Program-made: the position numbers and the translations under genes
Notes under the pieces: generated by a model
What the model saw: the letters and a program-made list of their open reading frames with translations, nothing else
The model's database searches: none
What the model was told of the DNA's origin: nothing
Shown here: in pieces, positions 5,572 through 41,607 of the stretch
How positions within the stretch are numbered: the first letter of the stretch is position 1
How the letters are laid out: each line of letters starts with the position of its first letter
From: Bernardetia sp. OM2101
GTDB taxonomy: Bacteria > Bacteroidota > Bacteroidia > Cytophagales > Bernardetiaceae
NCBI RefSeq assembly: GCF_042180575.1
Contig: NZ_CP170094.1
Location: forward strand, 1,912,604 to 1,976,603
Direction of reading: 5' to 3'
DNA length: 64,000 nucleotides

Positions 5572-5667
5572 TTTGGAAGAAAGCTATTGGTATATATTAG
5601 GATAGAATTTCAAATAAAGTAACTTGATAGTAGTCAGGCTACCAAATTACTTTATTTTGTAGGATAT

Positions 5668-8634: not shown

Positions 8635-9028
8635 ATTTAAATTAATTATAAAAGTAACAGATAGGATATTTTTAAGAAAGTCACATCTAAGAGAATTCTA
8701 CATAATGCAAATTCGTTTATTTTATTAATTTTTGCAAATCTTGTTTTTTAATTTGATGTGGATAATAGGTTGATTATAAAACTTTTGTTGTTTTACAAGC
8801 CCTCTTGTTTTATTTTATTTTTATACATAAAATAAATTTATCATATAATTATATCATTAATAGCAACTAACTAAACGAAAATAATAAAGGACATTAACTG
8901 TGGTTTTTTTATGTATTCCGTAAAAGTAATTTCAAAAATTAAGATAAAATTAAAATAATTAAGGTAATTAGTTACTTCTTATAGCTAATTTAATAGCTTG
9001 AAAGATGGATATAAACAGGATTTTTGGT

Positions 9029-9637
9029 TTAGCTTAGAAAAGCTATCCATTCTTTATATAGTTTTTGAACAGGTAATCCCATAACATTAAAATAACTTCC
9101 ATTTATTTTTTCCACTCCTATCATTCCGAGCCATTCTTGCGCTCCATACGAACCAGCTTTATCAAAAGGTTTATATTTTTGAATATAATAATCAATTTCA
9201 TTTTGACTTAATTCTTTAAAAAACACTTCTGTTTCATCCGAAAAGCTATGTAACTTTGATTTTGTACAAATACAAACCCCTGTAATAACCAAATGTTTTT
9301 TACCTGAAAGAAGATGTAGCATTTCTCTAGCTTCAAATTTATTTTGAGGTTTGTTGAGTATTTTATCTTCAATGACTACAATCGTATCTGAAGTAATTAA
9401 AACTTCATTCAAAAAGTCTGAATTGTTTTCCTTTAATTCACTTTGTTGTGCTAAGGCTTTTCGTTCTGCTAATTTTTGAGCGACTTCTTTTGTTTGCCAC
9501 TCAGGTAAAATATCTTCCTCTACGTCTTTTACACGCTGCTCAAACTCTATATCCATAGAAGATAAAAGCTGCTTTCTACGTGGAGAACCAGAACCTAAAA
9601 TGACTTTGTAATGATGTAAAAGGTGATTTAAAAGCAT
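9029..9637 (-). CDS. maf: Maf-like nucleoside triphosphate pyrophosphatase (septum formation protein Maf)
   Basis: N-terminal ILGSGSPRRKQLL motif and length typical of Maf/YhdE. Confidence 0.85.
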   Translation of the reverse strand: MLLNHLLHHYKVILGSGSPRRKQLLSSMDIEFEQRVKDVEEDILPEWQTKEVAQKLAERKALAQQSELKENNSDFLNEVLITSDTIVVIEDKILNKPQNKFEAREMLHLLSGKKHLVITGVCICTKSKLHSFSDETEVFFKELSQNEIDYYIQKYKPFDKAGSYGAQEWLGMIGVEKINGSYFNVMGLPVQKLYKEWIAFLS

Positions 9638-9683
9638 GTTTTTTTTGAATTATAAGTAGTAAATAATCAACTCAAAGTTTTTT

Positions 9684-10193
9684 TTATATCCGTGTCAGTT
9701 CTCTAATTAGCTTGCTATGTTTTGGAAATTCTTTTGATAACTCTTCATACTTAGCTAGTTCGAAATCAGCAAAATCAAATGCTGGAGCAACTGTACAACC
9801 CGATAAAGTAAAACCATTAGGATTCTGACAACGTGAAGCAAACCAAAGTCCAGCAGGAATTACAACTTGAGGAAACTGTTTTTTTTCAATATCTAGTCCC
9901 AATACTTTTTCATGAAGATTTCCCAAATCATCAAAAAAGAAAATGGAAAGTGGATCGCCATCATAAAAATGCCACATTTCGTCAGAAGCAATACGATGAA
10001 AAGCCGAAAAAGTATCTCCTGTAAGTAAAAAATAGATAGCAGTACTGTATGCACAATTTCCAAAAAAGTTCTTGGGTAATACACTTTTAGGAATAATTCC
10101 TTCTGCACGATATGTTTCTGCAAAAAAACCTCCTTCAGGATGAGAAGTCAAATTTAGTTTTTCAATCCAATAGTCTTGATTGTGATAACTCAT
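9684..10193 (-). CDS. Cupin-fold DUF985 protein
   Basis: LTSHPEGGFFAETYRA motif near the N-terminus is characteristic of DUF985 cupins. Confidence 0.7.
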   Translation of the reverse strand: MSYHNQDYWIEKLNLTSHPEGGFFAETYRAEGIIPKSVLPKNFFGNCAYSTAIYFLLTGDTFSAFHRIASDEMWHFYDGDPLSIFFFDDLGNLHEKVLGLDIEKKQFPQVVIPAGLWFASRCQNPNGFTLSGCTVAPAFDFADFELAKYEELSKEFPKHSKLIRELTRI

Positions 10194-10217
10194 TGATAAT
10201 AGATTTACTTGTTATAT

Positions 10218-10895
10218 TTATTTTGCCAATTTACCTTCTTTGTTCTCAAAACGATAATCTATTTCAAGAAACTCTATTTTTCCTTTTTCTACTTTTGTAA
10301 TCAGTTTTGGCGCAGATGTAATTCCTTGTAAGAATACAAAACCATTAAAATCAATAATTTTATATTCTGACTCCCATTCGTAATCTCTGTCTAACGTTTT
10401 AGTTTTAACTAATCCATTTTCTTGATAAGTAAATCTATATTCTTTTACTTTTTCAATAGATTGAAATAAAGGTGCTTTTATTAATTCTTTTTTCAATTTA
10501 TTTACAGTTGTATTACTTGGTTTTTCATTCAATTTGACATAAGACAATGTATATCCTTTATAGTTTATTGTCAGTGAATCGTTTGTATGGACGGTCATTG
10601 TTTCTTCTTCATTCAGTTTGTATATTTTGTCATCTAAAGAAGTCAAGTTTAATGTGTCTCTATAAACAAATACATTAGTTTCACCACTTTTCATATTTAT
10701 TCTGTCTTGAGTTTCCATTCTATGAAACTGATTTGACGTTGTGCTATAAAGAAAAATCTGAACTTTTGCTTGTTCCATAAAATTTCCTAAAGAATCATAC
10801 ACTCCTTTTGTTCTCCATAATTTTCCAGTTTCAATATTTTGTCCAAAACTTAGAGTTGAGATAAATAGCATTAGTAATACAAGTAGATTTTTCAT
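10218..10895 (-). CDS. Hypothetical secreted protein (signal peptide)
   Basis: N-terminal MKNLLVLLMLFISTLSFGQ signal; no recognisable domain. Confidence 0.45.
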   Translation of the reverse strand: MKNLLVLLMLFISTLSFGQNIETGKLWRTKGVYDSLGNFMEQAKVQIFLYSTTSNQFHRMETQDRINMKSGETNVFVYRDTLNLTSLDDKIYKLNEEETMTVHTNDSLTINYKGYTLSYVKLNEKPSNTTVNKLKKELIKAPLFQSIEKVKEYRFTYQENGLVKTKTLDRDYEWESEYKIIDFNGFVFLQGITSAPKLITKVEKGKIEFLEIDYRFENKEGKLAK

Positions 10896-11087
10896 GTTTT
10901 TATAGTTAAATTTTTAAATAATATACAAATATAATAAATTAAGTTACGACCTAAGTGAAGTAGGATTATTGAATTTCTTTTCAATAATTTCAACTAGAAA
11001 CAAAATCTTTTTCTAAAGTATAAAACTAAAACCCTAAATTTGCAAGACACAAATTTTAAATAAATAATTTTGTGAAACTTATCCACT

Positions 11088-12170
11088 ATGAAAAACTACG
11101 TAAAATTCAAGCCTAAAGACAAAAGTTTATTCTTTCCGACCTTAAAAAAGAGAGTAGATGATTATTTTATTACCAACAATATTAGTAAAAATGCAAATAC
11201 AGGTATGGTAATCAAGACGATTATTTTACTATCTGCCTATATTTTACCTTTTATTTATATTTTAGCTTACAACCCTAGTTTTATCATTTCTACTGTTTTA
11301 TGGTCAATAATGGGACTAGGTATTGCAGGAATTGGGATGAGTGTGATGCATGATGCAAATCATGGTTCGTATTCTCGTTCGGAATGGATAAACAAACTCT
11401 TAGGCAATACACTTACTTTGGTAGGTGGCTCGGTCGATAATTGGAAAGTACAACATAATTTATTGCACCATACTTTTACAAATGTAGTTCATCAAGACGA
11501 TGATATTTCTGATAAATTTGTTTTGCGTTTTTCTCCCCATACAGAAGTAAAGTGGTTTCACAAATATCAATATATTTATGCTTTCTTTTTTTATGGATTA
11601 CAAACTATTTATTGGGTTTTTGTAAAGGATTTTCTTCAATTTAAGCGTTATGTCATAAAAGGAGAAAAAAAATGGTTTACATTTATCAAATTAATTTTAT
11701 CCAAGATTATATATACTTTTGTAATCATATTACTTCCTATTGTATTTTTTGATATTCCTGTTTTGAATGTAGCCATAGGTTTTTTGGTCATGCAATTTGT
11801 AGCAGGATTAGTCCTAACAGTTATTTTTCAGTTGGCGCATACTGTTGAAGGAACTACACATCCATTGCCTAACGAAAAAAATGAAATTACACAAGATTGG
11901 GCAATCCATCAAATGAACACAACCGTAGATTTTGCACCAAAAAACAAGCTGCTCTCGTGGTATATTGGAGGTCTGAATTTTCAAGTAGAACATCATTTAT
12001 TTACCAAAATTTGTCATATTCATTATCCTGAAATCTCTAAAATAGTACAACAAACGGCTGCTGAATTTGATATTCCTTATTTAATGAATGAAAGTTTTTC
12101 TGATGCACTTATTGCTCATATAAACGCACTCAAAAGATTTGGCAAAGAAGAAAGTGGATTGTTGATTTAA
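11088..12170 (+). CDS. Membrane fatty-acid desaturase (three histidine boxes)
   Basis: HDANHG, HNLLHH and QVEHHLF histidine boxes with hydrophobic segments. Confidence 0.85.
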   Translation: MKNYVKFKPKDKSLFFPTLKKRVDDYFITNNISKNANTGMVIKTIILLSAYILPFIYILAYNPSFIISTVLWSIMGLGIAGIGMSVMHDANHGSYSRSEWINKLLGNTLTLVGGSVDNWKVQHNLLHHTFTNVVHQDDDISDKFVLRFSPHTEVKWFHKYQYIYAFFFYGLQTIYWVFVKDFLQFKRYVIKGEKKWFTFIKLILSKIIYTFVIILLPIVFFDIPVLNVAIGFLVMQFVAGLVLTVIFQLAHTVEGTTHPLPNEKNEITQDWAIHQMNTTVDFAPKNKLLSWYIGGLNFQVEHHLFTKICHIHYPEISKIVQQTAAEFDIPYLMNESFSDALIAHINALKRFGKEESGLLI

Positions 12171-12205
12171 AAAAATAAGTGTGCTGTTGTTTGGTCTAAA
12201 CTATT

Positions 12206-12245
12206 GTCAGAGTTATTTTGGATTACCAAAAACTACTGACAAAGT
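12206..12245. repeat. REP-like palindromic element, inverted copy of the 172-215 element
   Basis: ttgtcagagttattttggattaccaaaaactactgacaa is the reverse complement (with few mismatches) of the element at 172. Confidence 0.6.
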
Positions 12246-12300
12246 TTTCCTGTTGATTTGAATATATTCATCCAATTTTATAAATTCAATACTCATTTTC

Positions 12301-12702
12301 TTATAAAACCTGCTCTTTAAATATCGTTTCTAATGCTTTTTTGGGGTCACTATCTAATCCAGAGTAGGTTTTAGAACTTTGAATGATTGTGCTTCTGCTG
12401 GCTGTTAGCCATCCAAAACGTTCGGATAATTCTAATTGACCTATTTTTCCACTGGCAGAATTTCCTTCACAAACCAGTTTCCAAGCCTTTAAATAATCAT
12501 TCAATAATTCTAATTCTATTTCACATGAAAATGTCTTTAATTTTGTTTCATTAATAGTGTATTTGATGTCTAAAAACTTTTTTCGTTTACAAAAAACGAT
12601 AACACCTACATTAAAGAATTCTTCTCGTTCTACTTTTGGAACAATACGAATGATGGCGTATTTGAAGGTAAATTTGTCTTGTATATTTTGCCTATCTTGC
12701 AT
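12301..12702 (-). CDS. DUF3037 domain protein
   Basis: 133-aa protein with ...YAIIRIVPKVEREEFFNVGVIVFC... typical of DUF3037; overlaps the upstream HipA-like gene by 11 nt, suggesting an operon. Confidence 0.55.
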   Translation of the reverse strand: MQDRQNIQDKFTFKYAIIRIVPKVEREEFFNVGVIVFCKRKKFLDIKYTINETKLKTFSCEIELELLNDYLKAWKLVCEGNSASGKIGQLELSERFGWLTASRSTIIQSSKTYSGLDSDPKKALETIFKEQVL

Positions 12703-13477
12703 AATTAGCTTCTTTAACTAATAAGTCAATATTAGAGAGTTTGGTAGTTATAAATTCGATATAGGCTTCTCTCATTTCTTGTGGACTTAAACTGATAGAT
12801 TCACTCATCAACCAATCTTCTGGAATAGTCGATACAATATCAATAATTACATCTTTACTTAATAACTGCTTAATTTCGGTTGCAGCCTCAGTTAGTTTTT
12901 CGGCTTTACTTAAAAGAACGTGGTCTTTAATGAGTGGGAATGTTCTTGTCAGATGACTTTTCCAATTATCCCAGTTGTGATGAAAATAAAAACTAGCTCC
13001 ATTGTCGATTATCCATAATTCATTATTCCAATGTAATAGGTTTGTATTTTTATCTGTTCGGTCGATATTACTGATAATACTATCCAAAATTACTACTTTA
13101 GAAGCAATCATTTTATCTACATCATTTACTAAAGGGTCGTAGGTAATAGCAGACGATAAAAACTGCAAACCAAGGTTTAGACCAACACTAAATTTGAGTA
13201 AATCTTGAATTTCTTCATCAGGCTGACTCTTACTAAATGATTCATCAAGATTCATAAATACAAGTTCAGGAACTTTCAAGCCTATTGCTCGTGCCATTTC
13301 GCCACCAATAAATTCTGCGATTAAAGCCATTTTTCCTTGTCCTGCACCTCTAAATTTTAGGACATACAAAAAATCATCATCACCTTTGACAATAGCAGGA
13401 AGCGAACCACCTTCTCGTAAAGGTTGCAAATATTGAATAACATCTATGGTTCGAATATCTAATTTTTTCATCAACAA
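12692..13477 (-). CDS. HipA-like kinase-fold protein (DUF3037 partner)
   Basis: Catalytic-loop-like NIDRTDKN and metal-binding IDNG motifs resembling HipA/PI3-4K-like kinases; G-rich loop KFRGAGQGKMA near the N-terminus. Confidence 0.5.
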   Translation of the reverse strand: MLMKKLDIRTIDVIQYLQPLREGGSLPAIVKGDDDFLYVLKFRGAGQGKMALIAEFIGGEMARAIGLKVPELVFMNLDESFSKSQPDEEIQDLLKFSVGLNLGLQFLSSAITYDPLVNDVDKMIASKVVILDSIISNIDRTDKNTNLLHWNNELWIIDNGASFYFHHNWDNWKSHLTRTFPLIKDHVLLSKAEKLTEAATEIKQLLSKDVIIDIVSTIPEDWLMSESISLSPQEMREAYIEFITTKLSNIDLLVKEANYAR

Positions 13478-13629
13478 AAATACTCAAAATATAAATCTTT
13501 TTACAACTATTTTCAAAATCTGATTGCAGTTTTTACTTTATTTCATTTCTAATGATTCCATTTCAGTAAAATTATCAAAATTTTAAACTTCAATTTAGAA
13601 TTTCTAAAAGTCCTAATAATTAATTACAG

Positions 13630-13810
13630 GCAAATGCTAGGGCAAACGCACGAAAATAAAATGTGTGATTTTACACTCTTTTTGACCTATTTTTTTAGTT
13701 TTAAAATTCAAGCGAGGACGCTTGAATTAGACAAAAACTGGTTTAAGCGTCCTCGCTTGAACCAATTCTTAAAAAATAAAATTTCGTGCGTTTGCCTTAG
13801 GCAAATGCTG
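13630..13810. repeat. Nested palindromic element of about 180 bp in a divergent intergenic region
   Basis: Outer arms ggcaaacgcacgaaa / tttcgtgcgtttgcc plus repeated ggcaaatgc; inner hairpins ttcaagcgaggacgcttgaa and ttaagcgtcctcgcttgaa (reverse complements of each other). Confidence 0.8.
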
Positions 13811-13888
13811 TATTTAGACCAAAAACTAAATTTTATCCTTATTTTTGATATTCTGTTTAAATTGTTTTCGTTTTCTTACCTCATTCAC

Positions 13889-15133
13889 ATGTCAAAATTC
13901 TCTTTCATTGTTCCTTATCGCAACCGAGACACAAAAATAGCCAAACGCTGTTTGCTTTCTCTTCAGCATCAAAAACTCATTCAAAGAAATGATACAGACT
14001 ATGAAGTCATTTTTATAGATTATGGAAGTGATATTTCTATTTCGGATGAGTTAGAAGATTTTTGTGAAAATTTGGATAAAGTAAATTATGTTTTTAATGA
14101 AGTAAGAGGAATGTTTTGGTCACGTTCGGCTTCTATCAACAACGGCATTTATTTAGCAAAAGGAGAATATTGTATTATTGCTGATGTAGATATGATTTAT
14201 TCACCTAATTTTTTGGAAGAAGTCGATAAAAACGCAACTCAAAATACACTTTTGCATTATCAATGTTTTTATTTGAATGAAGACTTTGAGTATGATAAAT
14301 ATCAGGAAAATCATAGCTTAAATATTGAAAATCCGAATCAATTTGAAAAGAGTAGTAAAGAATCGGCTATGGGAATTGTCGTTATTCCAACAGAAAAACT
14401 AAAAAAAATAGGAGCTTTTGATGAATATTTTAGGCTTTGGGGAATAGAAGATAAAGATTTGAATAGACGATTATTGAACTATAAGTATGAGAAAAATAAA
14501 GATAAAAAGTTAGAAATGAAATGGCTCAATGCTGAAAAATCGCCTGTTTTTCATCAATGGCATCCAGCAGCAAATAATCCATTAGCACAACCAAAAGGCT
14601 GGGAAAAAATCGTAATTGACCATTATCACAATAAATATGATAAGCCAGAACTTACTATTCACACGAAAACAAATGGAATAGAAATAGGAAAAGTTTATAC
14701 AAAAGAAGAACGTCCTGCATTAAAAGTGTATGAAAGTACTCAATTAGATTCTAACCTCATTATTACTAATTATAGTTTTGAGTTTCCTATCGAAAAAGCC
14801 TATTCTTCTTTTGCAAGTCAGTTTATGAAATTAGAAAAAAACGAACCTCTTATTCTAAACCAATCCTTTTCTTTAATCGATGAAAAAGCAACCAGTAAAG
14901 CTGCAAAAGGAGTAAAGAAAATAAATACGCTTTTAGAAAAAGTAAAGGTTTCATACAGAATGACCGAACTTTTGAAACATACTTACGGAAATATAGATTT
15001 TTATCAAGTTCGTGATTTTCTATTTTATTTTATCGTCGATTTTGAGAATTTTATTGAAGATTATTATTACAAACAAGAAAATGGAAAAAATGGAAAGCCT
15101 GAAAAAATCACATTGATTTTATTCAAAAAGTAG
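13889..15133 (+). CDS. Family 2 glycosyltransferase. The start is placed at MSKFSFIVPYRNRD; the ORF-track start at 13634 runs through the palindromic element and is unlikely
   Basis: FSFIVPYRNRD N-terminus and DVDM (DxD) motif of GT2 enzymes. Confidence 0.65.
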   Translation: MSKFSFIVPYRNRDTKIAKRCLLSLQHQKLIQRNDTDYEVIFIDYGSDISISDELEDFCENLDKVNYVFNEVRGMFWSRSASINNGIYLAKGEYCIIADVDMIYSPNFLEEVDKNATQNTLLHYQCFYLNEDFEYDKYQENHSLNIENPNQFEKSSKESAMGIVVIPTEKLKKIGAFDEYFRLWGIEDKDLNRRLLNYKYEKNKDKKLEMKWLNAEKSPVFHQWHPAANNPLAQPKGWEKIVIDHYHNKYDKPELTIHTKTNGIEIGKVYTKEERPALKVYESTQLDSNLIITNYSFEFPIEKAYSSFASQFMKLEKNEPLILNQSFSLIDEKATSKAAKGVKKINTLLEKVKVSYRMTELLKHTYGNIDFYQVRDFLFYFIVDFENFIEDYYYKQENGKNGKPEKITLILFKK

Positions 15134-15143
15134 TTTATATTAA

Positions 15144-16463
15144 CTATACCAATTCAGAAACAGGCAAAACATTTACAGTTAGATTGGAATTAGACAAATC
15201 AATATCTTTCAATTCTACTTCTTGAAGTGTATTAGGCAAAGAAACATTATAGGCTTGATTTACACGAACATAATTTTCTGTAAATCCAAAGATTTTGTCT
15301 TCTTTGACTTCATTTTCCCACAAAACTATCTTGGCTTTTCCTAATTGAGATTGGTAAAAATAATTTCGTTTTTTATCAGAAAGACTATGTAACATCTTCG
15401 AACGCTCGGCACGAACTTTTTTAGGAACTGCATTTTTCATATCAGCAGCCTTTGTATTTTGGCGTTCTGAATAAGTAAAAACATGCAAATAAGAAATATC
15501 TAAGCTATGCAGAAAATTATATGTTTCCATAAAATGTTCTTCACTTTCGCCTGGAAAACCAACAATTACATCGACACCAATACACGCATCAGGCATTAGA
15601 TTTTTAATTTTTTCTATTCTTTCACTATACAAACTCGTTTTATAACGACGACGCATAAAACGCAAAATCTCATCGCTACCCGACTGTAAAGGAATATGAA
15701 AATGAGGCACAAACCTTTTAGAATTAGCTACAAATTCGATAATTTCATCAGATAATAAATTAGGTTCGATAGACGAAATACGAAAGCGCTCAATTCCTTC
15801 TACTTTATCCAGTTCTTGTACAAGTTCGAAAAAAGTATGAACACGCTCATTGTTTATCAAGCCATAATCACCTGTATTTACACCTGTCAAGACAATTTCT
15901 TTTACTTTTGTAGCTGCAATTTCTCTTGTAGCTTTCAAAATATTTTCTACTGTATCACTTCTGCTATTTCCTCTAGCAAGTGGAATCGTACAAAAAGCAC
16001 AATTATAATCACAACCATCTTGAACTTTCAAAAATGTACGTGTACGGTCGCCGAATGAATAAGCTGTATTAAAATCAGTCGCTTGTGAAATTTCAGAAGC
16101 GCAAAGTTGAACAGTATCTTTTTGCTCAAAATCATTCAAAACTTCAAACAAACGGAATTTTTCGGCTGCTCCCAAAACGGCATCAACACCTTTTATAGTA
16201 GCAATTTCTTGTGGTTTGAGTTGAGCATAACAACCAATAATAATTACAAAAGAATTTGGCGATGTTTTTTTAGCTTGTTTTACAATCTGCTTACACTTTT
16301 TATCTGCGTTTTCTGTAACCGAACAGGTATTGATGACAAAAATATCTGGATTTTCAGCAAATTCGACACGCTCATAACCACGCTCTTCAAACTGACGGGC
16401 AATAGTTGAGGTTTCAGAAAAATTGAGTTTGCAACCCAAGGTGTAAAAAGCTACTTTACGCAT
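15144..16463 (-). CDS. mtaB: Radical-SAM tRNA methylthiotransferase, MtaB-like
   Basis: N-terminal MTTase domain (YTLGCKLNFSE), radical SAM CDYNCAFC (CxxxCxxC) and TRAM-like C-terminus, 439 aa. Confidence 0.7.
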   Translation of the reverse strand: MRKVAFYTLGCKLNFSETSTIARQFEERGYERVEFAENPDIFVINTCSVTENADKKCKQIVKQAKKTSPNSFVIIIGCYAQLKPQEIATIKGVDAVLGAAEKFRLFEVLNDFEQKDTVQLCASEISQATDFNTAYSFGDRTRTFLKVQDGCDYNCAFCTIPLARGNSRSDTVENILKATREIAATKVKEIVLTGVNTGDYGLINNERVHTFFELVQELDKVEGIERFRISSIEPNLLSDEIIEFVANSKRFVPHFHIPLQSGSDEILRFMRRRYKTSLYSERIEKIKNLMPDACIGVDVIVGFPGESEEHFMETYNFLHSLDISYLHVFTYSERQNTKAADMKNAVPKKVRAERSKMLHSLSDKKRNYFYQSQLGKAKIVLWENEVKEDKIFGFTENYVRVNQAYNVSLPNTLQEVELKDIDLSNSNLTVNVLPVSELV

Positions 16464-16492
16464 AAATTAATTACGAATTACGAATTACGAAT
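16464..16492. repeat. Short array of ATTACGA/TTCGTAA-type heptamers
   Basis: attacgaattacgaattacgaatt read directly; same family as 31931-32070, 55048-55198, 55560-55640 and 61620-61656. Confidence 0.8.
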
Positions 16493-16733
16493 TTGATGTA
16501 GTAATTATCTACAGTTCGTGTTCTTATTATTAAATTATTGTTCGTGTTTTAATGATAGCAACACCAACAAGTAAGAAAGTCTGATCTAGTTACAGCAAAG
16601 GTACGAAATAAAATAAAATTTGCATTTATGAAAAAATACACTTTTATTAGCTAGGCTAAACAAAAATGTAAAAACTGAACTTATTTTTCAAAGAATTAGT
16701 TTGATTTTTATAAACCTTTTAAGTCTGTAAAAT

Positions 16734-16781
16734 GGGGATTTAGCTCAGTTGGCTAGAGCACTTCGCTAGCAGTGAAGGGGG
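16734..16781 (+). tRNA. tRNA-like 5' portion (acceptor strand, D-arm, anticodon arm) interrupted by an IS
   Basis: GGGGATT-TA-GCTCAGTTGGCTAGAGC-A-CTTCG-CTAGCAG-TGAAG gives a canonical 5' acceptor strand, D-arm and anticodon arm; followed directly by the IS left inverted repeat. Confidence 0.4.
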
Positions 16782-17957
16782 CAGTGATGTTAAGTTCTAA
16801 TTGATTTTGTATTTTTGTTTTTTTATTGACAGAATAAAATTTGGTTTATGGAATTTAGTGACTTTATCAGAAACATGGAAGATAGCCGTAGAAGTCAAGG
16901 TCAGCGTTACTCTTTTGAATCTATGATGTGGATGATTTTTTTGAGTATTGCTTGTGGCTATGAGAGTAGTCGTAAAATGGCTACTTTTTGTATTTCTTAT
17001 CAAGACGTATTTATAGATTATTTTGATTTAAAACATGGTACTCCTAGTTATGGCACTTTTCATACTTTTTTATCTTATTTAGATAGTTTATCTTTTGCAG
17101 CCTCTTTTAATACTGTTATGCTTTCTCATTCGGAATTAGAAAAAGGAGATTGGATAGCAGGAGATGGACAAACTCTATGTTCTACCGTTAGTTCTTCTCA
17201 TACAAGCAAACAAGATTATGTTAGTGTAGTGAGTTTATTTTGTCAAAAAACAGGTTTGAGTATTTTATTGAAAGATTATATGAATAAAGATAAACAAGAA
17301 TCAGAAGCTAAAATAGTTTTAGAGTTACTACTTAAGAATTTGAAAGACAAAGGCTTAATGTTTACATTGGATGCTCTACATTGCCAAAAAAAACATTAAA
17401 AAGTATTGTCGCTAGTGGAAATGACTTTACAGTTCAAGTAAAAGGAAATACTCCAAAGTTACTAGCTAGTTTAGAAACTACACTACTTACTACTACTCAT
17501 AGAGACACTCACATTATAGAAAAAAAAAGAATGGCATAAAAACAACTTGGCAATGCTACTGCTACGATTATGTGCAAAAAGTGAAAGAATGGCAGTGCAT
17601 TGAAACAATTATCGTAATTTATAAAACAGTTATTGAACCTACTAAAGTAACTCCTACTCGTCGTTATTATGTTTCAAATAAAAAACTAGAAGAGGGATTC
17701 TCAGCCAAGTCATTTAATGTAGGTATTAGAGGGCATTGGGATATTGAAAATAAAGCACACAGAAATAAAGATATTGTATTCAAACAGGATGATAACAAAG
17801 TTAAAAATAGTAAACATGCAGTAAATAGAGCTATTTTCAATACTATAGCACTCAATTTCCTAATAGATAAATATTCTGAAAATGTAATGTATAACCAAAT
17901 TTTATTTCGTACACAGTTTCAAAAAATATGCTTTAAAAAGAGAACTTAACATCACTG
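16782..17957 (+). mobile_element. ISAs1-family insertion sequence (about 1.18 kb) with 16-bp terminal inverted repeats and a 10-bp target duplication GTGAAGGGGG
   Basis: Left IR cagtgatgttaagttc (16782-16797) and right IR gaacttaacatcactg (17942-17957); gtgaaggggg repeated at 16772-16781 and 17958-17967. Confidence 0.8.
16848..17949 (+). pseudogene. ISAs1-family (H-repeat-associated) transposase, disrupted by frameshifts or stops
   Basis: N-terminal DDE_Tnp_1-assoc-like domain (..RRSQGQRYSFESMMWMIF..). The central segment ..SGNDFTVQVKGNTPKLL.. lies in another frame, and the C-terminal ..IRGHWDIENKAHRNKD.. piece in a third ORF. Confidence 0.75.
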
Positions 17958-17967
17958 GTGAAGGGGG

Positions 17968-17993
17968 GCATCGGTTCGAATCCGATATTACCA
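17968..17993 (+). tRNA. tRNA-like T-arm and 3' segment downstream of the IS (GCATCGG-TTCGAAT-CCGAT-ATTACCA)
   Basis: Canonical T-stem/loop GGTTCGAATCC; however the 3' strand ATTACCA does not pair with the 5' GGGGATT, so the two pieces do not reconstitute a clean tRNA. Confidence 0.3.
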
Positions 17994-18194
17994 TAGTTTT
18001 CAAAGGCTAATATCGCCATTTTCGATGTCCCTACTGATGATAACTTACAAAAAAAATAAAACATGATTAAATATCCTACTTTGTGTAACACCATTTAAAA
18101 AAAGAATTAGAAAGTGAGAATTTAAACTATCAAGACAACTTTGAGATATCAGACATAATTTGCTCAGTTACTTATTCTAATAATGACTTGAAAT

Positions 18195-19130
18195 TTATTC
18201 ATCATCTTCATCATCGTCTTCTTGCATAGCTGCAAGTTCTGCTCGTTTGGCAATTACGCCACGTTCTACATATTCGACTATTTTTGTAGCAATATCTACT
18301 TGTGTAGCCGTTTCTATTCCTTGCAAACCAGGAGAAGAATTTACTTCCAAAACCAAAGGTCCTCTATCGGAAATCAAAATATCTACACCAGCAACAGAAA
18401 GTCCCATTACTTTAGCAGCTTTTACGGCTGTTTTGCGTTCTATTTTTGAGAGTTCTATGATATTACTTTGCCCTCCTCTATGAAGGTTTGAACGAAACTC
18501 TCCTTCTTTTCCTTGTCGTTTCATCGAACCAACTACCTTTCCGTCCACTACAAAAGCACGAATATCAGCACCTCCAGCTTCTGCAATAAATTCTTGAATC
18601 AAAATATTAGCTTTCAAACCAGAAAATGCTTCGATAGTTGATTTTGCAGCTTGTGCTGTATCTGCCAAAACAACACCTAATCCTTGTGTTCCTTCTAAAA
18701 GTTTTATCACAACAGGTGTTCCTCCTACTTCACTAATAAGCATGTCGACTTCTTTGTCTTTTGGAAATTTAGCAAAAACCGTTTTAGGAATTCCGACACC
18801 TATTTTTGATAATAATTGAAGGCTACGAAGTTTGTCCCTAGATTGTGAAATACTTTGTGAACTATTGGCACAAAAAGTATCTCGCATTTCAAACTGACGA
18901 ACTACGGCTGTTCCGAAATAAGTAACAGATGCTCCAATTCTTGGAATAATGGCATCGTATTGACCCAGTAATTTTCCTTTGTAATAAATTGTTGGAAGTC
19001 CTTTTTCCATTCCAAAATGACATTTGGTATGGTCAATGACTCTAGCTGTATGCCCTTTTTGTTTGATGGCTTCGATGAGCCTACGTGTAGAATACAAAGT
19101 ATCACTTGTAGAGAGAACTGCAATTTTCAT
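18195..19130 (-). CDS. rimK: RimK-family ATP-grasp alpha-L-glutamate ligase; start placed at MKIAVLST
   Basis: ATP-grasp motifs and an acidic tail ...EDDDEDDE; its ATG overlaps the stop of the upstream gene (ATGA at 19127-19130). Confidence 0.8.
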
Positions 19131-19561
19131 TTCTTTTTCTTGGGTAGAGGCAATAAATAGGTTTGTGAACAATCTACCAAAAAACGTTTGCTTAATAACT
19201 TTCTACCAAGCAAAATTGGGTAGCGCATGTTTTTTCGGTTTGTAAGTGTAAAATAGGTCTTATAATCGCTTCGTCCGATACGTACACGAGTATGGATTTT
19301 GTAACGAGTTTGTGCTACTCCGTTTGAGCTACGCACTTTGGCTTGAGAAAACTCCTCCAATTTATATTCTTTTTCTTGATAATCTTCATGAGTGGGATCT
19401 AAAATCGAAAAACACAAAAACTGTTTTCCTTCTTCTTCTATTACCCTAATATTATGACAATGTAGTGAAGAGGTATAAGCTCCTGTATCTGTTTTGGCAT
19501 CTATTAAAGGAACTCCCAAATCAGTCAGTCCCACTTCTTCTACTCTTCCAATAATTTCCAT
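19127..19561 (-). CDS. RimK-associated putative ATP-dependent zinc protease (retropepsin-like, DUF785/Zn_protease family)
   Basis: 144-aa protein with ..[14 protein letters not shown].. immediately upstream of rimK and translationally coupled to it, the usual partner arrangement. Confidence 0.65.
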
Positions 19562-19694
19562 TTTATGCTCGTTTTTTTGTAAAAATTTTCAAAATTATAA
19601 TCTAAAACTTACTAATTTGTTTAGCTTTACAGAAAATCAATTAGGAATAGAATTAAATACCAACAACTACTATTTTATCAAAAAAGCTCAATGT

Positions 19695-20729
19695 ATGTTT
19701 AGAAAAGCACATTTTAATCTTTTATTTTGGATAGGAATAAGTACTCTTAGCCTCACTATTTTTAGTTGTCAAACAAAGAAAAGCGAAATAAGTCAGAATA
19801 GCGAATCTAGCACTAGAAATTTTGGAACAAAAGACAAAATAATTTTAGATTCAGACCCAAGTAAAGAAATTAACTTAGAAGACGACAAACAAAATTTTGA
19901 CGCTTTTATGAAAATTAGAAGCTCTATTGAAGGTTTGGATAGTTCGAATCAAACAAAAGAAAGTATTTACTATTGGGAAGGAAGTATTTATTCTTTCATT
20001 GATGGTCAGCGTAGTAAAAAGATACTGGGAATGAAAGGTTTTAGTGTATCAAGATGGCTAAAGACAGATTCTTCAAGACAATTATTGACTAGAGAAGTCG
20101 CTTTATATACAGACCCAAAAACAGGAAAGATTTTGGAGAAGATGAACAATCCTCTTTTAGATGAAAAAATTGATTCCGTGGAAATTATTCATGTTTGGAA
20201 TAACCCTGTAAATCAACGATTCCCATATAACATCAAAGAAAACTATGAACAAAACCATAAGGAAAGTACAGTTTATGGCATTCCTTATAGTGAATTAGGC
20301 GAAGATATTGTTTGTTTTTATGCTGATATTTTTCTGACTTATCCGTCACTTATCACTCGCAAAGAATTTCCTCAAAATGTACAAAGTGATTTGTATCAAG
20401 GTGCAGAATTATTTCAGTTTTTTGTAAAAAAATCAGATTTAGAAAATCCAATGCTGACAGATGTTCCTGCTACTATTTCTTGGACACGTATAGGACAATG
20501 GCTTCCTTTTATGAATATGGGTGATAGAAAAGGGTATTTGGTATATCAGTGTAGAGGTTATAAAGTTTTGGAAGGGTTTGAAGGGTTGCCAAAAGATGTA
20601 AAAGACTATGTAAGAGCAAAACAACCTATTTTTGAACACGCTCCGACAGAATATTCTCAACCAAATGAAACGAGTTGGTCATATTTTAAGAAGGTTAAGG
20701 AGAATAAAAAAATAGAGATTGGAGAATAA
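19695..20729 (+). CDS. Hypothetical lipoprotein; start placed at MFRKAHFNLLFWIGISTLSLTIFSCQ
   Basis: Lipoprotein signal peptide with Cys after the h-region; the ORF-track start at 19494 overlaps the divergent gene. Confidence 0.5.
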   Translation: MFRKAHFNLLFWIGISTLSLTIFSCQTKKSEISQNSESSTRNFGTKDKIILDSDPSKEINLEDDKQNFDAFMKIRSSIEGLDSSNQTKESIYYWEGSIYSFIDGQRSKKILGMKGFSVSRWLKTDSSRQLLTREVALYTDPKTGKILEKMNNPLLDEKIDSVEIIHVWNNPVNQRFPYNIKENYEQNHKESTVYGIPYSELGEDIVCFYADIFLTYPSLITRKEFPQNVQSDLYQGAELFQFFVKKSDLENPMLTDVPATISWTRIGQWLPFMNMGDRKGYLVYQCRGYKVLEGFEGLPKDVKDYVRAKQPIFEHAPTEYSQPNETSWSYFKKVKENKKIEIGE

Positions 20730-20766
20730 AAAATTTTATTTCCATGCAGACTGTACCTATACTTAA

Positions 20767-22578
20767 TTATTTCCCCTTCTTTATCGTATTTGGTAACTTC
20801 TTCTTTTTACTTACTTGTGAAAGCAAAATGGCAGGTAAAAGACTTACCAAAATAATTAGTAATGCAGGCAAAGCTGATTGAGCTACAAATTCTTGGTCTG
20901 CAAGTTCGTAGGCTTTTGTAGCAAGTGTATCATAATTAAAAGGGCGTAAAATAAGTGTCAGAGGTAATTCTTTACTCACATCTACAAAAACCAAAAGTAA
21001 AGCTGTCAGCATAGCAGGGCGAAGAAGTGGTAAAGTTATTTTGAAAAATGTCTGTGTCGAATTTTTACCTAACATTTTTGATGCAGACTCTAAAGAACTT
21101 CCTATTTTAATTAATTGACTTTCAACAGGTTGAAAACCAACCGACAAAAAACGAACAGAATACGCATAAATCAAAGAAACGACAGTTCCAGAAACAAACA
21201 AACCGATTTTTATATCAAAATTATTAAGTAAAAAGGAATATAACTTTTTATCAATCCAAAGAAAAACACCCAAAACTCCCACAGCAATCACAGCCCCTGG
21301 AACAGCATAACCCATAGTAGCAATTCGACTGATAGATTTTTGAAAGAATAATGAAAAAGGGTAATTTTTGATGTAACGAATAAAACTGTAATAATTTATT
21401 TTTTTGCCATTGTTGTTATCGTTACCTCTGCCGTTGTCCCCACTGACGAATACACTACCCCTCCTGCCGTTGTTGGTGTCCCCACCAACGACATGTAAAC
21501 TATTAATTCGTTTTTGAAAAAGACCTAATAAAATAGCTACAATCACAACTACAAAAGCACTTAAAAAAGCCAAAGTAATTGTATGAGAAGCCAAATCATA
21601 AATTTCTTGATTCAAAACTTCGCTTATTCCTTTATCTTGAAATTCTTTGACTGTCCAAAAAATAAGCTGCAAAACAGGAAACCCAAAGGCAAAACAAAAA
21701 ATAAAACTACAAAAAATTAAAGCGAGAGTTTGCTGATAAAAACTCAGTTTTTTTCTAGGCATTTGAGCCGTATTTTTATCATCTGAAAAACCCATCCTAC
21801 CACGTTGTTTTTTTTCCAAAATCACTAAGAAAACAATCACTCCCAAAAGACACAAAGCCAGTCGCAGAGCAGCCTTTACATCTCCAAACTTAGCCCACGC
21901 ACTAAAAATACCTGTTGTAAAAGTCTGGATTCCGTAATATTTGAATGTTCCGTATTCATTCAAAACTTCCATCAAGACAAGAAAAAGTCCACCAAAAATA
22001 AACGGACGAGCAAGTGGCAAAACAACCTTAAAAAAAGTATAGAAAGAGGATTTCCCTAGCATCTTTGAAGCCTCCCAAACACTTCCTAATTGATTCGAAA
22101 AAGCTGTTTTGCTTACTGCATAGACATACGGATAAAGAGCCAAAGACAAAATAAAAACACCTCCAAAATCTGACATAATTTGTACAGAAGGTAAATCATT
22201 TTCTCTCAAAAAAATACCAACTCCACCTGTATAAGAAAGTGTAGCAGCGTAAGTATAAGCCAAAATATAAGCAGGAATAGCAAGAGGCAATACCAACGCC
22301 CACTCAAAAAATTTACGTCCAAAAAAATCCGTTGTAGAAACAAGCCAAGCCGTCGGAACACCAAAAAAAAGCACTCCCACACTCACACCAAAAAGCATTT
22401 TGAGAGAGCCTAATGTATAATCCAATAAAAGATTTTTGGCAATATGATTCCAAGCTGTACTACTTTCACCATCAAAAGCTGTAAAAAGATACAAAATTGG
22501 CATACTCCACACCAAAAGAAGCCCAATTACTAAAAAATAAGACAAGAAAGAAGAAAAAATCGATTTTATTTTAGACAT
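20767..22578 (-). CDS. Fused two-domain ABC transporter permease (iron(III)/thiamine-type, FbpB/ThiP-like)
   Basis: Two tandem permease domains with EAA-like loops; contains an unusual G/N/D/R-rich low-complexity insert. Confidence 0.7.
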   Translation of the reverse strand: MSKIKSIFSSFLSYFLVIGLLLVWSMPILYLFTAFDGESSTAWNHIAKNLLLDYTLGSLKMLFGVSVGVLFFGVPTAWLVSTTDFFGRKFFEWALVLPLAIPAYILAYTYAATLSYTGGVGIFLRENDLPSVQIMSDFGGVFILSLALYPYVYAVSKTAFSNQLGSVWEASKMLGKSSFYTFFKVVLPLARPFIFGGLFLVLMEVLNEYGTFKYYGIQTFTTGIFSAWAKFGDVKAALRLALCLLGVIVFLVILEKKQRGRMGFSDDKNTAQMPRKKLSFYQQTLALIFCSFIFCFAFGFPVLQLIFWTVKEFQDKGISEVLNQEIYDLASHTITLAFLSAFVVVIVAILLGLFQKRINSLHVVGGDTNNGRRGSVFVSGDNGRGNDNNNGKKINYYSFIRYIKNYPFSLFFQKSISRIATMGYAVPGAVIAVGVLGVFLWIDKKLYSFLLNNFDIKIGLFVSGTVVSLIYAYSVRFLSVGFQPVESQLIKIGSSLESASKMLGKNSTQTFFKITLPLLRPAMLTALLLVFVDVSKELPLTLILRPFNYDTLATKAYELADQEFVAQSALPALLIILVSLLPAILLSQVSKKKKLPNTIKKGK

Positions 22579-40599: not shown

Positions 40600-41607
40600 G
40601 ATAATAGACTTTATTACGATAATTTTTGATAGGTTATTCTTGTCTTTACCCTTAAATTATGAATACCACACGCAATTTCCATGACTTGGTCTCTTACCTC
40701 TTCTCCCCACAATCGGATTTCATCTAAGACAATTCTAAGTCTTTTTACTCCTGCTATGCTGTGTTCTGCACGTACTCTACGACTAGACTTTTTACTATTT
40801 TCAGCCTTGTCCTGCTCCGATAATTCTTTTCCTCTAGGCTTTTTTTTGGGTTGCTCAATAAGGACACCTTTAGGTCTATGACCTTGATAACCAGTATCTT
40901 GATGAAGAATAGTTCCCTCAGGAAAGGTAATATCATCTTCTTCTAATAAACGTTTATCGTGTACTTTTCCTGTTTCTGTATCTCCTAAAAAAACTACCTC
41001 TTGATGTTTATCTGTAACTAAAGTATTTTTTATAGTGTGCTTTTTTTTTTCCACTATATACTTCTTTTTGAGCTTTGTAATCGGAGGGACGAGGAATTTC
41101 ACGTTCGCTTCCATCTACCCATAACTCTAAGGCTTTACCTGCTTCTTCAACACGATCTGCAAGTTTTATTGTCCATTCCGATTCATTTCTTGCAGGCAAT
41201 ACATTAATTTTTCTTAAACTTTCTTTTAAAATGGGAAGAAGGCTGTTAATCCATTGATTAACTTTTCCTTGAGAAACATCAAAAGTAAGAGCTAAAGATT
41301 CCTGTAAAGGGTTGTTTTTCAAGTAGTAAAGGATAAAAAAAAGTTTCATTTCACTACCTTTTAGTTGTATTTTTGCGTGTTCTCGGAAGGTGGGCTTATT
41401 TCTAGCCTTTCCTTTGAGGTCATAATACATATAATGTTTTTCCCAAAGTGGAGAAAAAGTAGCTAATAACTCATCAAACTCTTTGATAGTCAAGCTAGTA
41501 AGAGCCATAAAAGGCTTTTCTTTTTTACGTAAGTTAGGTAAATCAATCATAAAGTAAGGATAAAATGACCGCTAATATAATAAAATTTACGTTTTAAAGT
41601 CTAATAA
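40600..41607 (-). mobile_element. IS element of about 1 kb encoding an HTH_Tnp_4 plus DDE_Tnp_4 (IS5-family/Harbinger-type) transposase with imperfect terminal inverted repeats
   Basis: Ends ATAGACTTTATTACGATAATTTT (40602-40625) and, in reverse complement, ATTAGACTTTAAAACGTAAATTTT (41582-41605). Confidence 0.65.
40614..41550 (-). pseudogene. DDE_Tnp_4 transposase split into two overlapping frames at an A10 run (frameshifted, or expressed by programmed frameshift)
   Basis: N-terminal part (41008-41550) and C-terminal part (40614-41114) overlap around the homopolymer at 41040-41052; together about 310 aa with GKKKAHY.. and C-terminal DDE motifs. Confidence 0.6.

What the first reader, a model, noticed from the sequence alone, without database searches (positions are those of the whole stretch)
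16734..17993. ISAs1-family IS with decayed transposase inserted into a tRNA-like sequence whose halves do not reconstitute a canonical tRNA
A perfect tRNA 5' half (acceptor strand, D-arm, anticodon arm with loop CTAGCAG) ends at the IS left inverted repeat, and a canonical T-arm (GGTTCGAATCC) follows the right IR after the 10-bp target duplication GTGAAGGGGG. Removing the IS and one duplication copy yields a T-arm followed by ATTACCA, which cannot pair with 5' GGGGATT. Either the tRNA is a pseudogene or remnant (possibly an old integration attachment-site scar), or additional rearrangement occurred. The transposase is split over three frames, including an A10 run, so the IS is likely immobile.
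Basis: seen in the sequence. Interest (0 to 1): 0.5.

Follow-up and report, generated by a model that had tools for sequence, protein, structure and literature searches.

The report
Insertion sequence inside a dead tRNA-Ala gene
A small jumping gene of the ISAs1 family sits inside the alanine tRNA (GGC) gene of a Bernardetia bacterium; that gene also carries three other disabling mutations, so this is an ordinary tRNA pseudogene and not a new kind of RNA or an integration scar.

Summary
A 1176-bp element (16782-17957) has perfect 17-bp inverted repeats and a 10-bp target duplication, GTGAAGGGGG. It splits a tRNA-like sequence (16734-16781 and 17958-17993).

The element belongs to the ISAs1 family. 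Its repaired 367-aa transposase scores 189 bits on NCBIfam NF033564, and a related 1183-bp IS contig starts and ends at the same bases.

The transposase is barely decayed. Its only defects are two single-A deletions, in runs that are now A8 and A9 (not A10).

The host sequence is the resident tRNA-Ala(GGC) gene. Close Bernardetia relatives have an intact copy (Rfam 56-61 bits) at the same place upstream of mtaB.

The window copy has three further lesions:
- Anticodon G34 to A.
- Variable loop GGGTC to GGGGGC.
- Acceptor 3' strand ATTCTCC-A to ATTACC-A, which removes U70 of the G3:U70 alanine identity pair.

All 31 comparison tRNAs are invariant at these positions. Both duplication copies carry the mutated variable-loop base, so that lesion probably came before the insertion.

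I found no integrase and no second tRNA fragment, so an attachment-site scar is not supported. This is an ordinary finding of low interest.

The parts
16734..16781 (+). 5' part of the tRNA-Ala pseudogene: acceptor 5' strand, D arm, anticodon arm and the start of the variable loop. The anticodon AGC lies at 16768-16770, where orthologues have GGC.
   Evidence: Sequence. Rfam tRNA partial hit of 23.2 bits. 47 of 48 bases match the orthologous intact tRNA-Ala(GGC) in L084, L087 and L091.
16772..16781 (.). Left copy of the 10-bp target-site duplication GTGAAGGGGG.
   Evidence: A 10-bp direct repeat is typical of ISAs1 elements (PMC11946415).
16782..17957 (+). ISAs1-family insertion sequence, 1176 bp.
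   Evidence: Inverted repeats. Its ends coincide with those of the related 1183-bp IS contig L122. NCBIfam NF033564 scores 189.3 bits on the repaired transposase.
16782..16798 (+). Left terminal inverted repeat CAGTGATGTTAAGTTCT.
16848..17949 (+). Transposase gene interrupted by two 1-nt deletions. The pieces are 16848-17399, 17381-17539 and 17572-17949 (the third frame is open from 17503). The repaired product is 367 aa.
   Evidence: It is 65% identical over its full length to the 367-aa protein P0182.
17386..17393 (+). A8 run, site of the first frameshift. The related IS L122 has A9 here, and restoring A9 gives ...DALHCQKKTLKS...
17520..17528 (+). A9 run, site of the second frameshift. One more A gives ...IIEKKKNGIKTTW..., which aligns without gaps to P0182 and P0183.
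17941..17957 (-). Right terminal inverted repeat.
17958..17967 (.). Right copy of the target-site duplication GTGAAGGGGG.
17958..17993 (+). 3' part of the tRNA-Ala pseudogene: the rest of an over-long variable loop (GGGGGC in the pre-insertion allele), an intact T arm at 17970-17986, and a defective acceptor 3' strand plus discriminator base, ATTACC-A, at 17987-17993.
   Evidence: The T arm and the first 3 nt of the acceptor strand are identical to the L087 orthologue.
15144..16463 (-). mtaB, the flanking gene that anchors orthology of the tRNA locus. It is not part of the element.
   Evidence: Pfam. 100% identical to the MtaB of a Bernardetia sp. whose name is cut off in that output; the RimK hit names strain OM2101. 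Intergenic homology of 85-94% to L084, L087 and L091 runs up to the tRNA.

Best explanation
The window comes from a Bernardetia genome (Cytophagales); the closest record is Bernardetia sp. OM2101. The sequence at 16734-17993 is the resident single-copy tRNA-Ala(GGC) gene that lies upstream of mtaB in this genus. It is now a pseudogene.

It carries four independent lesions:
1. G34 to A in the anticodon.
2. A variable loop changed from GGGTC to GGGGGC.
3. A 3' acceptor strand changed from ATTCTCC-A to ATTACC-A. This shortens the stem and removes U70 of the G3:U70 pair that alanyl-tRNA synthetase needs (established knowledge).
4. A simple cut-and-paste or copy-in insertion of a 1176-bp ISAs1-family IS into the boundary between the anticodon stem and the variable loop, which made a 10-bp target duplication.

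Both duplication copies already contain the mutated variable-loop base. The most economical order of events is therefore that the tRNA gene was already altered, and probably already dead, when the IS landed in it, so the landing was neutral (inferred). The perfect inverted repeats, the perfect duplication and a stop-free reading frame indicate a comparatively recent insertion (inferred).

The IS then lost autonomous transposase expression through two single-A deletions in A9 and A10 runs. Alternatively, these are assembly errors. Alanine decoding is presumably covered by tRNA-Ala(UGC) genes, which sit in the rRNA operons of relatives, or by another GGC copy elsewhere (inferred, not testable here).
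For: IS anatomy:
- Perfect 17-bp inverted repeats and a 10-bp direct repeat.
- The ends match those of an independent related IS contig, L122.
- Family assignment: NCBIfam ISAs1 at 189.3 bits against a cut-off of 70, covering model positions 3-314 of 314; Pfam DDE_Tnp_1_assoc plus DDE_Tnp_1; 640 plasmid records with ISAs1-annotated matches.
- A 10-bp direct repeat and 14-22-bp inverted repeats are described for ISAs1 (PMC11946415).

Frameshifts:
- A8 and A9 runs.
- Gap-free protein alignment to the 367-aa and 365-aa homologues across both junctions.
- L122 has A9 where the window has A8.

Orthology:
- Intact tRNA-Ala(GGC) lies upstream of mtaB in L084-86, L087-90 and L091, with flanking homology of 85-94%.
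- These orthologues score 56-60.6 bits on Rfam tRNA, against 23.2 bits for the window fragment.

Lesions:
- Alignment to the orthologues.
- All 31 comparator tRNAs that share this anticodon arm (17 distinct sequences) have G34, a 5-nt variable loop GGGT[C/G] and a TCC-A 3' end.
- The reconstruction has G3.A instead of G3.U and a 6-bp acceptor stem.
- ARAGORN gives only a non-canonical call.
Against: - ARAGORN does report a (non-canonical) tRNA on it.
- The order of events rests on one base of the duplication and on assuming a 10-bp rather than a 9-bp duplication.
- The rest of the source genome could not be read, so compensation by other tRNA-Ala genes is assumed.
- Homology to orthologues stops at tRNA position 68, and the next ~200 bp (17994-18194) match nothing retrieved. 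The acceptor lesion could therefore be a rearrangement breakpoint and not point mutations.
- The two A-run deletions could be assembly errors.
Confidence: 0.85

Rival explanations
1. The IS insertion was the first and only inactivating event. The three other tRNA lesions accumulated afterwards by neutral decay.
For: - Five or so changes in 76 nt (about 6%) is of the same order as the 6-14% divergence of the adjacent intergenic DNA from relatives.
- A disrupted tRNA gene is free to decay.
Against: - Both copies of the 10-bp duplication carry G at the position where all 31 comparators have T47. This is expected only if the change existed before duplication.
- The IS itself shows no decay in 54 nt of inverted repeats plus direct repeats and has no stop codons in 367 codons. 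The insertion therefore looks younger than the tRNA lesions.
Confidence: 0.25
2. The 3' part of the tRNA and the DNA to its right are the product of an old integration or rearrangement at the tRNA 3' end. This could be an attachment-site scar or hybrid tRNA, or another breakpoint at tRNA position 68/69. On this reading ATTACCA is foreign sequence and not a mutated acceptor strand.
For: - Homology to orthologues ends after GATATT (tRNA position 68), and 17994-18194 has no match in any retrieved relative.
- DNA downstream of this tRNA differs among L084, L087 and L091. L087 has a Mu-like prophage there, and B. litoralis and L083 lack the tRNA at this locus.
- The rimK block is rearranged relative to L092, L094 and L123.
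Against: - The variable loop, the T arm and the first three acceptor bases are colinear with the L087 orthologue. At most the last ~8 nt could be foreign.
- No integrase or recombinase was found among the 16 ORFs scanned with Pfam between 9.0 and 24.4 kb.
- There is no second copy of the T arm or D arm anywhere in the 64 kb.
- CCA after the lesion can equally be the orthologous C71-C72-A73.
Confidence: 0.1
3. The transposase is not really broken. The two missing A's are homopolymer errors of a long-read assembly, or are bypassed by transcriptional slippage on the A8 and A9 runs, so the IS is still active.
For: - Both defects are single-A deletions in the two longest A-runs of the element and nothing else is wrong: no stops, perfect inverted repeats and direct repeats.
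- The source contig is 5.9 Mb, which suggests long reads.
- A second IS in the window (40602-41606) has an A10 run exactly at its orfA/orfB overlap.
- From my own knowledge, slippage on runs of 9 or more A's is used by some IS families.
Against: - About 20 A8 or T8 runs lie inside intact long ORFs in the same window, so the assembly does not systematically shorten such runs.
- Full-length homologues (P0182, P0183) encode one uninterrupted ORF, and the second run is not conserved in L122.
- Needing two independent slippage events would make expression very inefficient.
Confidence: 0.2
4. The two halves form a functional split or unusual tRNA, for example a bacterial A34 tRNA-Ala(AGC).
For: ARAGORN calls tRNA-Ala(agc) on the IS-deleted reconstruction. 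The D, anticodon and T arms are all intact.
Against: - The gene is physically interrupted by 1176 bp, with no sign of a self-splicing intron (no Rfam hit).
- The G3:U70 identity pair is lost and the acceptor stem is one pair short.
- The A34 allele was found in 0 of 25 metagenome matches, although the search pattern allowed A or G at that position.
Confidence: 0.01

Closest known systems
ISAs1-family insertion sequences (ISAs1 of Aeromonas salmonicida, the H-repeat element ISEc1, ISPmar4)
   Same: - A single DDE transposase of about 370 aa with a DDE_Tnp_1_assoc N-terminal domain.
- The NCBIfam ISAs1 model is matched end to end.
- Size about 1.2 kb, 17-bp terminal inverted repeats starting with CAG, and a 10-bp target duplication.
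   Different: - It is a very divergent member. It is about 28-32% identical to the ISAs1 transposases in the eight plasmid records listed (all 640 matching records are below 60%), and only 65% identical to its nearest database relative.
- The inverted repeat starts CAGTG, not the usual CAGGG.
- The reading frame is broken by two single-A deletions.
Intact tRNA-Ala(GGC) of Bernardetia relatives (L084 c5670-5744, L087 c5745-5819, L091 c5719-5793)
   Same: - Same genomic position upstream of mtaB.
- Identical acceptor 5' strand, D arm, anticodon stem and T arm (the T arm as in L087).
   Different: - Anticodon AGC instead of GGC.
- Variable loop of 6 nt instead of 5 nt.
- Acceptor 3' strand ATTACC instead of ATTCTCC.
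- A 1176-bp IS plus a 10-bp duplication inside the gene.
tRNA genes used as attachment sites by integrative elements
   Same: A tRNA gene lies at a synteny breakpoint, and DNA downstream of this tRNA differs between related genomes.
   Different: No integrase, no flanking direct repeat of the tRNA 3' end and no island-like gene content were found. The interrupting element is a plain IS with its own inverted repeats and target duplication.

Membership tests
ISAs1 family IS | Transposase matches the ISAs1-family profile. | tested here: met
   NF033564 scores 189.3 bits against a cut-off of 70, covering model positions 3-314 of 314, on the frame-repaired 367-aa protein. Pfam PF13808 and PF01609 also match.
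ISAs1 family IS | Terminal inverted repeats of 14-22 bp. | tested here: met
   The repeats are 17 bp and perfect, at 16782-16798 and 17941-17957. The range is taken from PMC11946415.
ISAs1 family IS | Inverted repeats begin with CAGGG. | tested here: not met
   They begin CAGTG, and the related L122 begins CAGTA. Only the CAG is shared. I treat this as subgroup variation and not as grounds for exclusion.
ISAs1 family IS | Target-site duplication of about 10 bp. | tested here: met
   GTGAAGGGGG is present on both sides. A 10-bp direct repeat is reported for the family (PMC11946415).
ISAs1 family IS | One uninterrupted transposase ORF, so the element is autonomous. | tested here: not met
   The gene is in three frames because of single-A deletions at 17386-17393 and 17520-17528.
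Functional bacterial tRNA-Ala | Uninterrupted gene that passes a tRNA model. | tested here: not met
   ARAGORN finds 0 tRNAs in the window. Rfam gives 23.2 bits, below the gathering score of 29, and there is no hit at gathering threshold. Orthologues score 56-60.6 bits.
Functional bacterial tRNA-Ala | Canonical cloverleaf after precise IS excision: 7-bp acceptor stem, 2-nt connector, 4-5-nt variable loop. | tested here: not met
   The reconstruction has a 6-bp acceptor stem with a G.A mismatch and a 6-nt variable loop. ARAGORN's only solution shifts the acceptor by 2 nt and uses a 4-nt connector. Covariance-model scoring of the reconstruction was not possible with these tools.
Functional bacterial tRNA-Ala | G3:U70 identity pair for AlaRS (established knowledge). 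| tested here: not met
   G3 faces A in the only register that pairs G1-C and G2-C. All 31 comparators keep T70.
Functional bacterial tRNA-Ala | Orthology to an intact tRNA-Ala gene. | tested here: met
   It occupies the same position upstream of mtaB with 85-94% flank identity, and about 95-96% identity to the L087 and L091 tRNAs apart from the lesions.
tRNA attachment-site scar of an integrative element | Tyrosine or serine integrase next to the tRNA. | tested here: not met
   Pfam scans of the 16 ORFs scanned between 9.0 and 24.4 kb found only housekeeping-type genes and the IS transposase.
tRNA attachment-site scar of an integrative element | A second, direct-repeat copy of the tRNA 3' segment bounding an island. 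| tested here: not met
   GGTTCGAATCC (up to 1 mismatch) and the D-arm 19-mer (up to 3 mismatches) each occur once in the 64 kb. A repeat outside the window cannot be excluded.

The most novel reading that the evidence does not exclude
The least ordinary reading not excluded has two parts. First, before the IS arrived this lineage carried a working A34 tRNA-Ala(AGC), a eukaryote-style anticodon that is very rare in bacteria. Second, the IS is a live element whose transposase is kept at very low level by requiring transcriptional slippage at two A-runs. Neither part has positive support. The acceptor stem lacks G3:U70, and no other A34 allele was found among 25 metagenome matches to a pattern that allowed A or G at that position.
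Probability: 0.04. Interest if true: 0.4.

Novelty: new member of a known kind. Interest (0 to 1): 0.12.

Why it matters
It matters little beyond annotation. The locus should be annotated as a tRNA-Ala(GGC) pseudogene interrupted by an unnamed, divergent ISAs1-family IS, and not as a novel RNA or an integration scar.

It is a clean example of an IS landing in an already damaged gene. It also shows that the mtaB / tRNA-Ala / rimK neighbourhood is a rearrangement hot spot in Bernardetia.

The element could be registered as a new ISAs1-family member. Only three database proteins were above 50% identity to its transposase, in a word-limited search.

Tried and rejected
- **Source genome look-ups.** Exact-protein look-ups for this genome's own MtaB and RimK found nothing. 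I therefore could not search the rest of the genome for other tRNA-Ala genes or other IS copies.
- **Genome-collection scan with MtaB.** It returned only relatives at 72% identity or less (family or order level). These have no tRNA and no shared neighbours, so they were uninformative for orthology. The useful loci came from the protein search followed by contig look-ups.
- **Viral-contig scans.** Scans for the mutated anticodon arm and for the aberrant 3' end found 0 hits.
- **Rfam at a permissive threshold across the locus.** It gave only chance-level hits (HPnc0260, snoZ40, DnaX, STnc170) besides the partial tRNA. I rejected these.
- **rimK-side orthologues.** L092/93, L094-96 and L123/124 were fetched to locate the right-hand breakpoint. 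Homology ends at the rimK stop codon in all of them, so 17994-18194 remains unplaced.
- **IS-mediated recombination between two copies.** I rejected this because the 10-bp duplication is intact.
- **Group I or II intron, or split tRNA.** I rejected this because there are no RNA-family hits and the insert has IS ends.
- **Literature.** A search for the strain name found nothing on its sequencing method.
- **Acceptor-pair listing.** It is off by one register and I did not use it. I used only the anticodon, variable-loop and 3'-end columns.
Full report
**1. What is in the sequence**

- A 1176-bp element occupies 16782-17957.
- It is bounded by perfect 17-bp inverted repeats, CAGTGATGTTAAGTTCT. 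These two sites are the only matches in the 64 kb, even with 3 mismatches allowed (about 0.23 expected by chance).
- Immediately outside both ends lies the same 10-mer, GTGAAGGGGG (16772-16781 and 17958-17967).
- To the left is a tRNA 5' part, GGGGATT-TA-GCTC-AGTTGGCTA-GAGC-A-CTTCG-CTAGCAG-TGAAG (16734 onward).
- To the right is GC, then a T arm ATCGG-TTCGAAT-CCGAT (17970-17986), then ATTACCA (17987-17993).

ARAGORN finds no tRNA anywhere in the window. Rfam at gathering thresholds finds nothing in the window. At a permissive threshold the tRNA model gives 23.2 bits for the interrupted 5' part, below the gathering score of 29.

**2. The insertion sequence**

The three ORF pieces (16848-17399, 17381-17539, 17572-17949) hit Pfam DDE_Tnp_1_assoc and DDE_Tnp_1. 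The frame changes fall exactly in two homopolymers, A8 at 17386-17393 and A9 at 17520-17528.

Adding one A at each run gives a 367-aa protein with these properties:
- It matches NCBIfam NF033564 'ISAs1 family transposase' at 189.3 bits (cut-off 70), across the whole model.
- It is 65% identical, end to end and without gaps at either junction, to a 367-aa database protein, P0182. It is 52-53% identical to the 365-aa P0183.
- The D, D and E motif regions (DG..., LDALHCQ, HWxIEN) are conserved.

The 1183-bp contig that encodes P0182 (L122) is itself an IS. Its first and last bases (CAGTAATGTTAAGTTCT ... AGAACTTAACATTACTG) align exactly with the window element's ends. It has A9 where the window has A8. 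This independently fixes the boundaries at 16782 and 17957 and shows that the first frameshift is a one-base deletion.

A tblastn against plasmids finds 640 records, all below 60% identity; the eight best are 28-32% identical and seven of them are annotated as ISAs1-family transposase. A published description of the family gives 14-22-bp inverted repeats starting CAGGG and a 10-bp direct repeat (PMC11946415). This element has 17-bp repeats starting CAGTG and a 10-bp direct repeat.

It is therefore a divergent, unnamed ISAs1-family member. 'Decayed' overstates the damage. There are no internal stops, and the inverted repeats and the duplication are perfect. The only defects are two single-A deletions.

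**3. Are the frameshifts real?**

About twenty A8 or T8 runs lie inside intact long ORFs in the same window, so the assembly is not grossly error-prone at such runs. No run of nine or more lies inside an intact ORF for comparison, however. Homopolymer error therefore cannot be excluded for an A9-to-A8 and an A10-to-A9 change.

A second IS in the window (inverted repeats near 40602-40626 and 41582-41606; HTH_Tnp_4 plus DDE_Tnp_4) has an A10 run exactly at the overlap of its two ORFs. This is the usual arrangement for frameshift- or slippage-controlled transposases (my own knowledge). For the ISAs1 element, two slippage events would be needed, and its full-length relatives need none. I rate 'really active' at about 0.2.

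**4. What the tRNA-like sequence is**

The flanking MtaB protein is 100% identical to that of a Bernardetia strain whose name is cut off in that output; the RimK hit names it as Bernardetia sp. OM2101. That genome itself could not be retrieved.

Contigs encoding MtaB proteins 93-95% identical were retrieved. In three independent relatives (L084-86, L087-90, L091) an intact tRNA-Ala(GGC) lies at the same place upstream of mtaB. The intergenic DNA is 85-94% identical to the window right up to the tRNA. These orthologues score 56-60.6 bits on the Rfam tRNA model.

Aligned to the L087 orthologue, the IS-deleted window sequence is colinear through tRNA position 68 and differs at three places:
- **Anticodon.** G34 is changed to A (GGC to AGC, at 16768).
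- **Variable loop.** GGGTC is changed to GGGGGC, which is T47 to G plus one extra G.
- **Acceptor 3' strand.** ATTCTCC-A is changed to ATTACC-A.

In the only register that keeps G1-C72 and G2-C71, G3 now faces A instead of U70, and the stem is one pair short. Loss of G3:U70 removes the major AlaRS identity element (established knowledge).

A metagenome scan used a pattern that allowed either A or G at position 34. It returned 25 tRNAs from diverse bacteria, all with G34. Across the 31 instances in all fetched loci that could be parsed (17 distinct sequences), every one has G34, a 5-nt variable loop GGGT[C/G] and a TCC-A 3' end. The window copy therefore departs from invariant positions three times. 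It is a pseudogene of the resident tRNA-Ala(GGC) gene, not a generic tRNA-like sequence.

**5.

ARAGORN does call 'tRNA-Ala(agc)' on the reconstruction, whichever of 8-11 bp is removed as the duplication. The solution is non-canonical:
- It recruits two upstream bases into the acceptor stem (ATGGGGA pairing with TTACCAT).
- It leaves a 4-nt connector to the D stem.
- It contains a G.A mismatch.
- It has a 6-nt variable loop.

I could not score the synthetic reconstruction with a covariance model, because the tools search only held sequences. That remains the one formal gap.

**6. Order of events (inferred)**

With the family-typical 10-bp duplication, the pre-insertion allele read ...CAGTGAAGGGGG-GCATCGG.... 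Both duplication copies carry G at the position where all comparators have T47. The variable-loop lesion therefore most simply predates the insertion. A 9-bp duplication of a wild-type target would need three extra changes at the junctions.

The IS shows no mismatch in 54 nt of inverted repeats plus direct repeats and no stop codon in 367 codons. The tRNA, by contrast, has about five changes in 76 nt, similar to the 6-14% divergence of the neighbouring intergenic DNA. This suggests the tRNA gene was already decaying when a younger IS landed in it. I hold this sub-claim at about 0.6. The reverse order (IS first) is the main rival for timing.

The intact duplication also means that both flanks were already adjacent when the IS inserted. 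This IS copy therefore did not create the tRNA-rimK junction.

**7. Attachment-site scar or other rearrangement?**

The neighbourhood is clearly fluid.
- B. litoralis (L081) and L083 lack the tRNA at this locus.
- DNA downstream of the tRNA differs between L084, L087 (Mu-like prophage genes) and L091.
- Relatives carry an rRNA operon beyond mtaB that the window lacks.
- The rimK-rimB-DUF1838 block sits in four different contexts in L092, L094, L123 and the window. Homology ends at the rimK stop codon each time.
- The 200 bp between the pseudogene and rimK (17994-18194) matched nothing retrieved.

I cannot exclude that the last ~8 nt of the tRNA were replaced by a rearrangement whose breakpoint is at position 68/69. 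The specific attachment-site model lacks its defining features, however:
- No integrase was found among the 16 ORFs scanned between 9.0 and 24.4 kb. These are Maf, Cupin_5, a desaturase, DUF3037/HipA_2, a glycosyltransferase, MtaB, RimK, a RimB-like protease, DUF1838, an ABC permease and a RecN-like protein.
- No second copy of the T-arm or D-arm sequence occurs in the 64 kb.
- The variable loop, the T arm and the first acceptor bases are orthologous and not foreign.

I rate this rival at about 0.1.

**8. Verdict**

Mechanistically this is an ordinary event. A DDE-transposase IS of the ISAs1 family made a staggered 10-bp cut at the boundary between the anticodon stem and the variable loop of an already damaged tRNA-Ala(GGC) gene, and inserted there. 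Alanine codons are presumably read by tRNA-Ala(UGC), which is present in the rRNA operons of relatives, or by another copy elsewhere. That point is inferred and could not be tested here.

The only novelty is a new, divergent ISAs1-family member. Interest is low.

Noticed in passing
window 40602-41606 (- strand genes 40614-41114 and 41008-41550): A second insertion sequence. An HTH_Tnp_4 ORF and a DDE_Tnp_4 ORF overlap at an A10 run (T10 on the + strand, 41041-50), with imperfect 25-nt inverted repeats at 40602-26 and 41582-606. It looks like an IS5-type element whose transposase is made by frameshifting or slippage at the A10 run.
   Followed up: partly
window 4656-20806 compared with L092, L094, L123: The rimK / RimB-like protease / DUF1838 block (18195-20729) and the Cupin_5 gene (9684-10193) are adjacent in relative L092. 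In the window they are 8 kb apart and inverted. Four relatives show four different contexts downstream of rimK, so this is a rearrangement hot spot.
   Followed up: partly
L081, L083, L091 (about 1.7-3.5 kb beyond mtaB) compared with window 13000-15143: Relatives carry an rRNA operon next to mtaB: 16S, tRNA-Ile(GAT), tRNA-Ala(TGC), 23S. The window has a family-2 glycosyltransferase and a HipA_2/DUF3037 pair there instead, and no rRNA.
   Followed up: no
window 16466-16495: A threefold tandem heptamer (AATTACG)3 lies immediately upstream of the mtaB start codon. It is conserved base for base in relative L084, so it may be a regulatory or leader element of mtaB.
   Followed up: no
window about 16715-16733 compared with L084 and L087: The window has about 12-15 extra bases (…AACCTTTTAAGTCTGT…) just upstream of tRNA position 1, relative to orthologues. 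This may also have disturbed the tRNA promoter spacing.
   Followed up: no
L087 270-5600 and L087 c968-1040: In one relative, the DNA beyond the intact tRNA-Ala(GGC) is a Mu-like prophage (Gam, an AAA_22 ATPase, a 689-aa protein, an HTH repressor). It contains an odd tRNA-like gene (Rfam 47.4 bits) for which ARAGORN cannot assign an anticodon.
   Followed up: no
L084 7339-13009: In another relative, mtaB is followed by a defence-like cluster (TerB_C, BrxC/BrxD-type ATPase, DEAD/Cas3-like helicase) that is absent from the window.
   Followed up: no
window 12301-13477 (- strand): A HipA_2-like kinase (12692-13477) is paired with DUF3037 (12301-12702). This may be a toxin-antitoxin or defence pair.
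   Followed up: no
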